From Pristiophorus japonicus (taxonomy: Eukaryota): a stretch of 64,000 bases of DNA. Positions within the stretch are counted from its first letter, which is position 1. Each line of letters opens with the position of its first letter. Both the position numbers and the translations under genes were made by a program. The notes under the pieces are model-generated. The model ran no database searches, was not told where the DNA came from, and saw nothing but the letters and a program-made list of their open reading frames with translations. This document shows, piece after piece, positions 47,254 through 47,624 of the stretch. Location: positions 226,238,001-226,302,000 of the forward strand of contig NC_091981.1 in NCBI RefSeq assembly GCF_044704955.1. The letters are read 5' to 3'.

Positions 47254-47624
47254 GACGACTCCCACCGCCGCGGCGATCAGTCGCTTCTTGCGGACGACCC
47301 GCGTGAGAGGTGGGCGATCGTCCTGTCTGCTTTTGGAAGAAATGGTGATGGCTGTGTAGACACCTCGACCAGAGAGAAAAATAAGTGATGCTGGTGGATG
47401 CAGTTCGGCCGCCGCTTGGCTTGACCTGACTTGGCCAGTAAGCAAGCCTGGATGCGCTCAAGCCTGGTCTTGAACTGTTGAATGAGACGGTGGTTAGACG
47501 GTGCCTGGAATTTAAGCGGGGAGGGGGCACGGACGAAAAGCAGTTTCTTCTCACGCCTCCAGCCAGTTTCCACCTGTCCCGATCCTAGATTCACGTGTGA
47601 GTAGAAGAACAAATCATCTCAAAG

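What the first reader, a model, noticed from the sequence alone, without database searches (positions are those of the whole stretch)
47254..47343. In-frame AUU-initiated 30-aa N-terminal extension could convert secreted C1QL3 into a type II membrane protein
Seen: 90 nt upstream of the ATG, in frame and without stops, is GCCATCACC-ATT-T (A at -3; ATT at 47343-47341). The extension reads [30 protein letters not shown] before [13 protein letters not shown], placing a basic RKKR cluster directly before a 22-residue uninterrupted hydrophobic run. Established: conserved non-AUG (AUU) N-terminal extensions have been proposed for the mammalian C1QL family, and C1QL3 is a secreted synaptic organiser binding ADGRB3/BAI3. 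Inference: leaky scanning gives two proteoforms, one secreted and one signal-anchored (positive-inside rule). Its presence in a probable shark would date this to the gnathostome ancestor.
Basis: partly seen in the sequence, partly recalled or inferred. Interest (0 to 1): 0.7.

Follow-up and report, generated by a model that had tools for sequence, protein, structure and literature searches.

The report
Shark C1QL3 with known AUU start
This shark synapse gene (C1QL3) carries, 30 codons above its normal start, the conserved AUU codon that mammalian C1QL genes are reported to use as a second start, so it likely makes a membrane-anchored form beside the secreted one; the feature is real but already described for the whole gene family.

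Summary
In detail: ATT at 47343-47341 (A at -3) opens 30 stop-free codons into the C1QL3 ATG, placing RKKR before a 22-residue apolar run. The gene is shark C1QL3. It is not chance: all four C1QL paralogues of this genome have such an ATT 29-31 codons above the ATG, and similarity to homologues stops at the Ile. It is also in print. The shark adds little: it lacks the CTG that a ribosome-profiling pipeline chose as the human C1QL3 start, which favours AUU. Not shown here: that the shark transcript covers the ATT, initiation, or membrane retention of C1QL3 itself. A word search of this scan's earlier findings gave no C1QL case. Verdict: real, already known, low interest.

The parts
47341..47343 (-). 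ATT, inferred upstream (AUU) start codon; A at -3, T at +4
   Evidence: matching ATT in three paralogues; human C1QL3 mRNA has ATT at the matching place
47254..47343 (-). 30-codon in-frame N-terminal extension
   Evidence: 19-23 of 30 residues identical in 14 of the 15 top-ranked C1QL3 homologues long enough to compare, 17 in the other
47281..47292 (-). basic cluster RKKR, predicted cytoplasmic flank of the anchor
   Evidence: conserved basic motif described in PMC11623489
47215..47280 (-). 22-residue apolar run (9 residues from the extension, 13 from the canonical signal peptide), predicted signal anchor in the long form
   Evidence: best 19-residue Kyte-Doolittle mean 3.21 against 2.14 for the short form
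47251..47253 (-). canonical ATG, strong context (G at -3, G at +4); start of the 254-aa secreted form
   Evidence: same length as the annotated shark protein P0001
47254..47322 (-). predicted RNA stem-loop starting 22 nt into the extension; not stronger than shuffles
   Evidence: -33.7 kcal/mol, z -1.3, 18 of 200 shuffles as good; z -1.4
47458..47460 (-). in-frame TGA bounding the open frame; excludes an unspliced upstream in-frame AUG
46669..47253 (-). C1QL3 coding exon 1 from the ATG (signal peptide, collagen repeat, start of C1q domain); GT donor follows
45821..46000 (-). C1QL3 coding exon 2 (rest of C1q domain, stop); strong pyrimidine-tract acceptor
43398..43607 (+). PTER exon (phosphotriesterase family, C-terminal end), tail to tail with C1QL3; synteny marker
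   Evidence: PTER-C1QL3 adjacency in human is recalled, not from a call

Best explanation
This is the shark C1QL3 gene with the family-wide in-frame AUU codon 30 codons above the AUG, which likely serves as a leaky second start so that one mRNA would give a secreted 254-aa form and a 284-aa form predicted to stay in the membrane. Shown by sequence: the ATT, the open frame, no intervening AUG, a basic n-region and a 22-residue apolar run. Inferred from mammalian orthologues and paralogues: some scanning ribosomes initiate at AUU, the rest at the strong AUG; in the long form the basic n-region stays in the cytosol and the lengthened apolar run is read as an uncleaved type II signal anchor, displaying the collagen and C1q domains at the cell surface.
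For: All four paralogues in this genome have ATT with A at -3, 29-31 codons above the ATG, a basic cluster and an apolar run of exactly 22 residues; one (L004) has a TAA three codons above the ATT. Paralogue extensions are homologous: 7-16 identities, at most 3 of 1000 shuffles as good in each of 6 pairs. Of 120 homologues, 39 extend far enough; Ile stands at the ATT column in 25 of 39, mean identity 0.52 within the extension against 0.09 above it; for 25 of 36 L003 homologues 23 of 25, 0.77 against 0.12. Among the 39, all 21 that keep the canonical Met have the Ile. Published: extension and non-AUG start conserved in all vertebrates examined (PMC3105428; human C1QL3 26.7 and 30.1 kDa forms predicted); two forms of C1QL1/2/3 in HEK293T, AUU mutation abolishes long C1QL2, long C1QL2 membrane-bound in neurons (10.1101/2024.02.16.580719); a peptide from the human C1QL4 extension (PMC11317171).
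Against: No shark RNA, ribosome or protein evidence was obtained, so it is not shown that the transcript starts above 47343. Context is only moderate (+4 T). The downstream stem-loop is not significant against shuffles in any of the four paralogues (z -1.0 to -1.6). The canonical cleavage region is still present in the long form, so cleavage is possible; membrane retention was tested for C1QL2 only. The 39 long homologues are a biased set: only records whose gene callers ran through an open frame appear. 14 of 39 lack the Ile (all in one teleost c1ql3b group). Ribosome-profiling coverage of the human C1QL3 extension was low (11.5), so the long form may be minor. No signal-peptide or topology predictor was available; I used charge and hydropathy counts.
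Confidence: 0.8

Rival explanations
1. The AUU-started long form is made but is not a stable type II membrane protein in C1QL3: it is cleaved by signal peptidase or shed, or stays inside the cell, so the extension changes timing or amount rather than location.
For: The cleavage region after the apolar run is unchanged in the long form. Localisation data exist only for C1QL2. PMC11623489 calls the long forms non-secreted without assigning them to the surface.
Against: Charge bias (+6 before, -1 after) and the 22-residue run are shared by all four shark paralogues (net +3 to +6); a distinct larger C1QL3 band persists in cells, and Phobius predicted a transmembrane segment for all four human long forms.
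Confidence: 0.12
2. The extension is translated, but from another start: a different near-cognate codon, or an AUG on an upstream exon spliced to an acceptor just above the ATT.
For: Eight other in-frame near-cognate codons exist, including ATC two codons above with G at -3. A CAG ends 8 nt above the ATT and a pyrimidine tract lies just upstream. A ribosome-profiling pipeline chose CTG, 31 codons above the ATG, for human C1QL3.
Against: That CTG is the codon after ATT in human and is TCT in the shark. The CAG has 10 pyrimidines in 19 nt, the background median; the pyrimidine-rich AG has G at -3. Similarity ends at the Ile in both homologue sets. The human mRNA runs unbroken into the ATT with no AG directly before it. 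Mutating AUU removes long C1QL2.
Confidence: 0.05
3. The stretch is untranslated leader in the shark; its likeness to coding sequence is a relic or reflects RNA-level constraint.
For: No expression data for this species were obtained; an open 30-codon frame has a chance of 0.28.
Against: 21 of 30 residues are identical to snake and mammal-type homologues (P0008, P0009) while the flank above falls to background; four paralogues keep frame, ATT and the 22-residue run.
Confidence: 0.03

Closest known systems
AUU-initiated N-terminal extensions of human C1QL1-4 (Ivanov et al. 2011, PMC3105428; saw passages, section 12 whole, parts of Supplementary Dataset 1)
   Same: Same gene, same codon, same position; human C1QL3 extension is 32 codons, described as conserved in vertebrates.
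   Different: Shark extension is 30 codons, with one residue fewer in the apolar part before the Met. The main text has no mention of shark or lamprey; the supplementary .doc could not be read.
Transmembrane long C1QL proteoforms (Lee et al. 2024, bioRxiv 10.1101/2024.02.16.580719; saw abstract, passages, sections 10 and 12 whole; no figures, supplements closed)
   Same: Exactly the mechanism proposed: upstream AUU turns a signal peptide into a signal anchor; two forms seen for C1QL1/2/3.
   Different: Mammalian cDNAs only; mutagenesis and localisation for C1QL2 only; predicted downstream RNA structure is not clearly above background in the shark genes.
C1QL upstream ATT traced to lamprey (Rodriguez et al. 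2024, PMC11317171, passages and supplement rows with Fig. S1 legend; preprint PMC11623489, passages and figure legends)
   Same: Conserved ATT, basic motif and Val/Ala/Gly-rich stretch in all four paralogues, fish and lamprey.
   Different: By their legends the alignments show human, fish and lamprey; whether a shark row is included could not be seen.
Neuronal pentraxin receptor CUG/AUG proteoforms (same Lee 2024 preprint)
   Same: One mRNA gives a membrane-anchored and a secreted synaptic organiser through alternative start use.
   Different: Unrelated protein, CUG start, and the long form is the canonical one.

Membership tests
C1QL3 orthologue | Signal peptide, collagen repeat, C1q domain | tested here: met
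   PF01391 and PF00386 above cut-off; apolar N-terminus
C1QL3 orthologue | Groups with named C1QL3 proteins, apart from C1QL1/2/4 | tested here: met
   C1QL3 clade 95/91, sister to Heptranchias C1QL3 (98% identical) in a 24-row tree of hand-picked rows, 20 of 156 stored proteins plus 4 own loci
C1QL3 orthologue | Tail-to-tail with PTER | tested here: met
   PTE-family exons at about 32447-32722 and 43398-43607 on +; the human arrangement is recalled
C1QL AUU-initiated extension | In-frame ATT with purine at -3, about 30 codons above the ATG, no ATG between | tested here: met
   4 of 4 paralogues
C1QL AUU-initiated extension | Protein-level conservation that begins at the Ile | tested here: met
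   0.52 against 0.09 (39 of 120 rows) and 0.77 against 0.12 (25 of 36 rows)
C1QL AUU-initiated extension | Basic motif then Val/Ala/Gly-rich stretch before the Met | tested here: met
   motif as described
C1QL AUU-initiated extension | Stable RNA structure downstream of the AUU | tested here: inconclusive
   stem-loop from +22, z -1.1 to -1.4
C1QL AUU-initiated extension | Transcript includes the ATT | not tested
   no read evidence obtained; left open
C1QL AUU-initiated extension | Ribosomes initiate at the AUU | not testable with these tools
   shown for mammalian C1QL2 by mutagenesis
Type II signal-anchored membrane protein | Positive N-flank and apolar segment long enough to span the bilayer | tested here: met
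   net +6 before, -1 after, 22 residues, hydropathy 3.21
Type II signal-anchored membrane protein | Segment not cleaved; protein retained at the membrane, N-terminus inside | not testable with these tools
   cleavage region still present; shown for C1QL2 only

The most novel reading that the evidence does not exclude
The AUU codon is kept only because it is coupled to the canonical AUG as a two-form switch: sharks keep both in all four C1QL genes, whereas a teleost c1ql3b lineage first gained a new Met just after the basic cluster, then lost the canonical Met, then mostly lost the Ile (14 of 18 rows). That lineage would be a natural loss of the switch, and the anchored form would act as a built-in tether holding mixed long/short C1QL3 oligomers at the presynaptic membrane.
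Probability: 0.25. Interest if true: 0.5.

Novelty: already known. Interest (0 to 1): 0.15.

Why it matters
The biology matters (a secreted synaptic organiser with a membrane-anchored twin made by non-AUG initiation), but it has been predicted since 2011, tested in 2024 and dated to lamprey. This window adds a chondrichthyan data point: all four paralogues keep the ATT, and the shark sequence argues against the CTG start called for human C1QL3. The practical value is annotation: the named shark records retrieved here start at the AUG (P0001 is 254 aa) and miss the long form.

Tried and rejected
Expression: no RNA holder listed (21 runs, none on record as RNA, shares at most 0.12), and no read evidence was obtained, so this is no evidence either way. 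Dating with the database hit labelled Lampetra planeri (P0077): rejected, it groups with teleost c1ql3b at 100/100 and is 96-100% identical to unnamed c1ql3b-type records, probably a contaminant; lamprey dating rests on the papers only. RNA stem-loop as support: not above shuffles. Splice acceptor just above the ATT: weak. Open frame as evidence: chance 0.28. A bacterial promoter scan is not applicable to a vertebrate and was ignored. No signal-peptide predictor was available; no structure or complex prediction was run because neither would decide cleavage. Paper searches for a shark-specific report (top 20, 20, 4 and 20 listings seen) found none; most subscription journals, including any journal version of Lee 2024, are outside the library. 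Earlier scan findings: eight fungal AUU cases, none on C1QL, not used.

Full report
Observation. On the minus strand the window reads GCC ATC ACC ATT TCT, with ATT at 47343-47341, and the frame stays open for 30 codons into the ATG at 47253. There is no ATG in any frame between the two; the nearest in-frame stop is 69 codons above the ATG with no in-frame ATG below it. The long form has a 21-residue n-region of net charge +6 ending in RKKR, then 22 apolar residues, then a flank of net -1; the short form has 13 apolar residues and no n-region. The context is moderate (A at -3, T at +4), the downstream ATG strong (G at -3, G at +4).

The gene. Coding exon 1 ends at 46669 before a GT donor and exon 2 spans 46000-45821, giving 254 aa from the ATG and 284 aa from the ATT. 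Pfam finds a collagen repeat and a C1q domain. The best of 662 homologues is Heptranchias C1QL3 at 98%. In a tree of 24 hand-picked rows the gene falls in the C1QL3 clade (95/91) beside Heptranchias and Callorhinchus. PTER exons lie tail to tail within the window; that this is the human arrangement is recalled. The gene is therefore C1QL3 of a shark.

More than chance? An open 30-codon frame is common (0.28). The paralogues decide it. The genome holds four C1QL genes. Each has an in-frame ATT with A at -3, 29-31 codons above the ATG, no ATG in between, a basic cluster and an apolar run of exactly 22 residues. In L004 (C1QL2 by the tree) a TAA stands three codons above the ATT, so no unspliced upstream AUG can supply that extension. 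A-nn-ATT occurs at 27 of 5916 flank positions; the rough chance of the pattern in the three other genes is 2.5e-6, with the window chosen after looking. The extensions are homologous: 7-16 identities per pair, at most 3 of 1000 shuffles scoring as well; without the apolar tail, 4 of 6 pairs remain significant and the L002-L003 and L002-L004 pairs do not. Among 120 listed homologues of the window protein, 39 run far enough upstream to compare: Ile at the ATT column in 25, mean identity 0.52 inside the extension and 0.09 above it. For L003, 25 of 36 homologues were long enough: Ile in 23, 0.77 against 0.12. These sets are biased towards open frames, and they are proteins, so the codon itself is not seen. 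The 14 rows without Ile all belong to a teleost c1ql3b group that has lost the canonical Met; all 21 rows that keep the Met have the Ile. This is one clade, so one event.

What is in print. Ivanov et al. 2011 (PMC3105428; passages, section 12 and supplement parts read) list C1QL1-4 among ten genes whose extension and non-AUG start appear conserved in all vertebrates with sequence, and give human C1QL3 forms of 26.7 and 30.1 kDa. The human mRNA there has ATT at the matching place, and stored homologues with the same extension share 21 of 30 residues with the shark. Lee et al. 2024 (bioRxiv 10.1101/2024.02.16.580719; sections 10 and 12 read, figures not seen) report two forms for C1QL1, 2 and 3 from native leaders, loss of long C1QL2 on mutating the AUU or its context, long C1QL2 membrane-bound in cortical neurons, surface display of GFP by the long N-terminus, and predicted transmembrane segments for all four long forms. 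Rodriguez et al. 2024 (PMC11317171; passages, supplement rows) found a peptide from the C1QL4 extension and align the four human regions with lamprey; a preprint (PMC11623489; passages, legends) states the ATT is conserved in lamprey. So both the mechanism and a date older than gnathostomes are published. My searches showed no paper that names a shark C1QL extension, but figures, one unreadable supplement of PMC3105428 and subscription journals may hold one.

Mechanism. Most likely leaky scanning: a share of ribosomes start at the AUU, the rest at the AUG. The short product has a cleavable signal peptide and is secreted. In the long product the basic n-region would stay cytosolic (positive-inside rule, established knowledge) and the 22-residue run would act as an uncleaved type II anchor, leaving the collagen and C1q domains outside. 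Sequence features are shown; initiation, transcript extent and topology in the shark are inferred from mammals, and localisation was tested only for C1QL2. I put this at 0.8.

Rivals. The long C1QL3 could be cleaved or retained inside, since the cleavage region persists (0.12). Another start could be used: Fedorova et al. 2022 (PMC9789052; one passage and supplement rows) called a CTG 31 codons above the human ATG with low coverage; this is the codon after the ATT in human and is TCT in the shark, which favours AUU, as Rodriguez et al. also argued. A CAG 8 nt above the ATT has only a background pyrimidine tract (together 0.05). Untranslated relic: 0.03.

Results against or neutral. The predicted stem-loop from +22 is not clearly more stable than shuffles (z -1.1 to -1.4 for the window, -1.0 to -1.6 across the paralogues). 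No expression evidence was obtained. A database record labelled lamprey that covers the extension is a teleost c1ql3b sequence and was not used for dating.

Verdict. A correct reading of a real, conserved feature, already predicted, tested and dated in the literature. The shark adds confirmation in a lineage not named in the texts I read, an argument for AUU over CTG, and a lead on a possible loss of the switch in teleost c1ql3b. Novelty: already known. Interest 0.15.

Noticed in passing
stored proteins (teleost c1ql3b group, e.g. P0039, P0045, P0055, P0098): 45 of 120 homologues have a new Met right after the basic cluster; 10 keep the canonical Met, 35 have lost it, and 14 of the 18 long rows among those 35 lack the Ile at the ATT column. 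Possible stepwise loss of the two-start switch; protein level only, one clade.
   Followed up: partly
P0018, P0021 (caecilian C1QL3 records): Both records start at Mets inside the extension; P0021 lacks the canonical Met. Not checked on DNA.
   Followed up: no
P0077: Record labelled Lampetra planeri C1QL3 groups with teleost c1ql3b (100/100); probable contamination in that assembly.
   Followed up: yes
L003:1498-2154 +: Matches shark proteins labelled C1QL2 in databases (96-99%), but L004 is the one that groups with bony-fish C1QL2, and L003's extension matches human C1QL4 at 23 of 31 residues by eye; the database labels may be wrong.
   Followed up: partly
window 47617-47591, minus: Only ATG within 600 nt above the ATT opens an 8-codon out-of-frame uORF that ends far above the ATT; whether it is in the mRNA is unknown.
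   Followed up: no
L002, 116 codons above its ATG: The C1QL1 paralogue has an in-frame ATG with an open frame down to the gene, but it lies upstream of a TATA-like box 123 nt above the ATT, so it is probably not in the mRNA.
   Followed up: no
window 32447-32722 and 43398-43607, plus: Exons of PTER; a match to the N-terminal part of the family was found only on a small separate contig (C1078).
   Followed up: partly
window about 650-3500, 7900-13300 and 9500-32200, 57600-59600: Many broken retroelement remnants (LTR-type gag/pol-like and LINE-type endonuclease/reverse-transcriptase-like frames, named by eye).
   Followed up: no
window about 60500-64000: Long imperfect tandem repeat with strong strand skew.
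   Followed up: no
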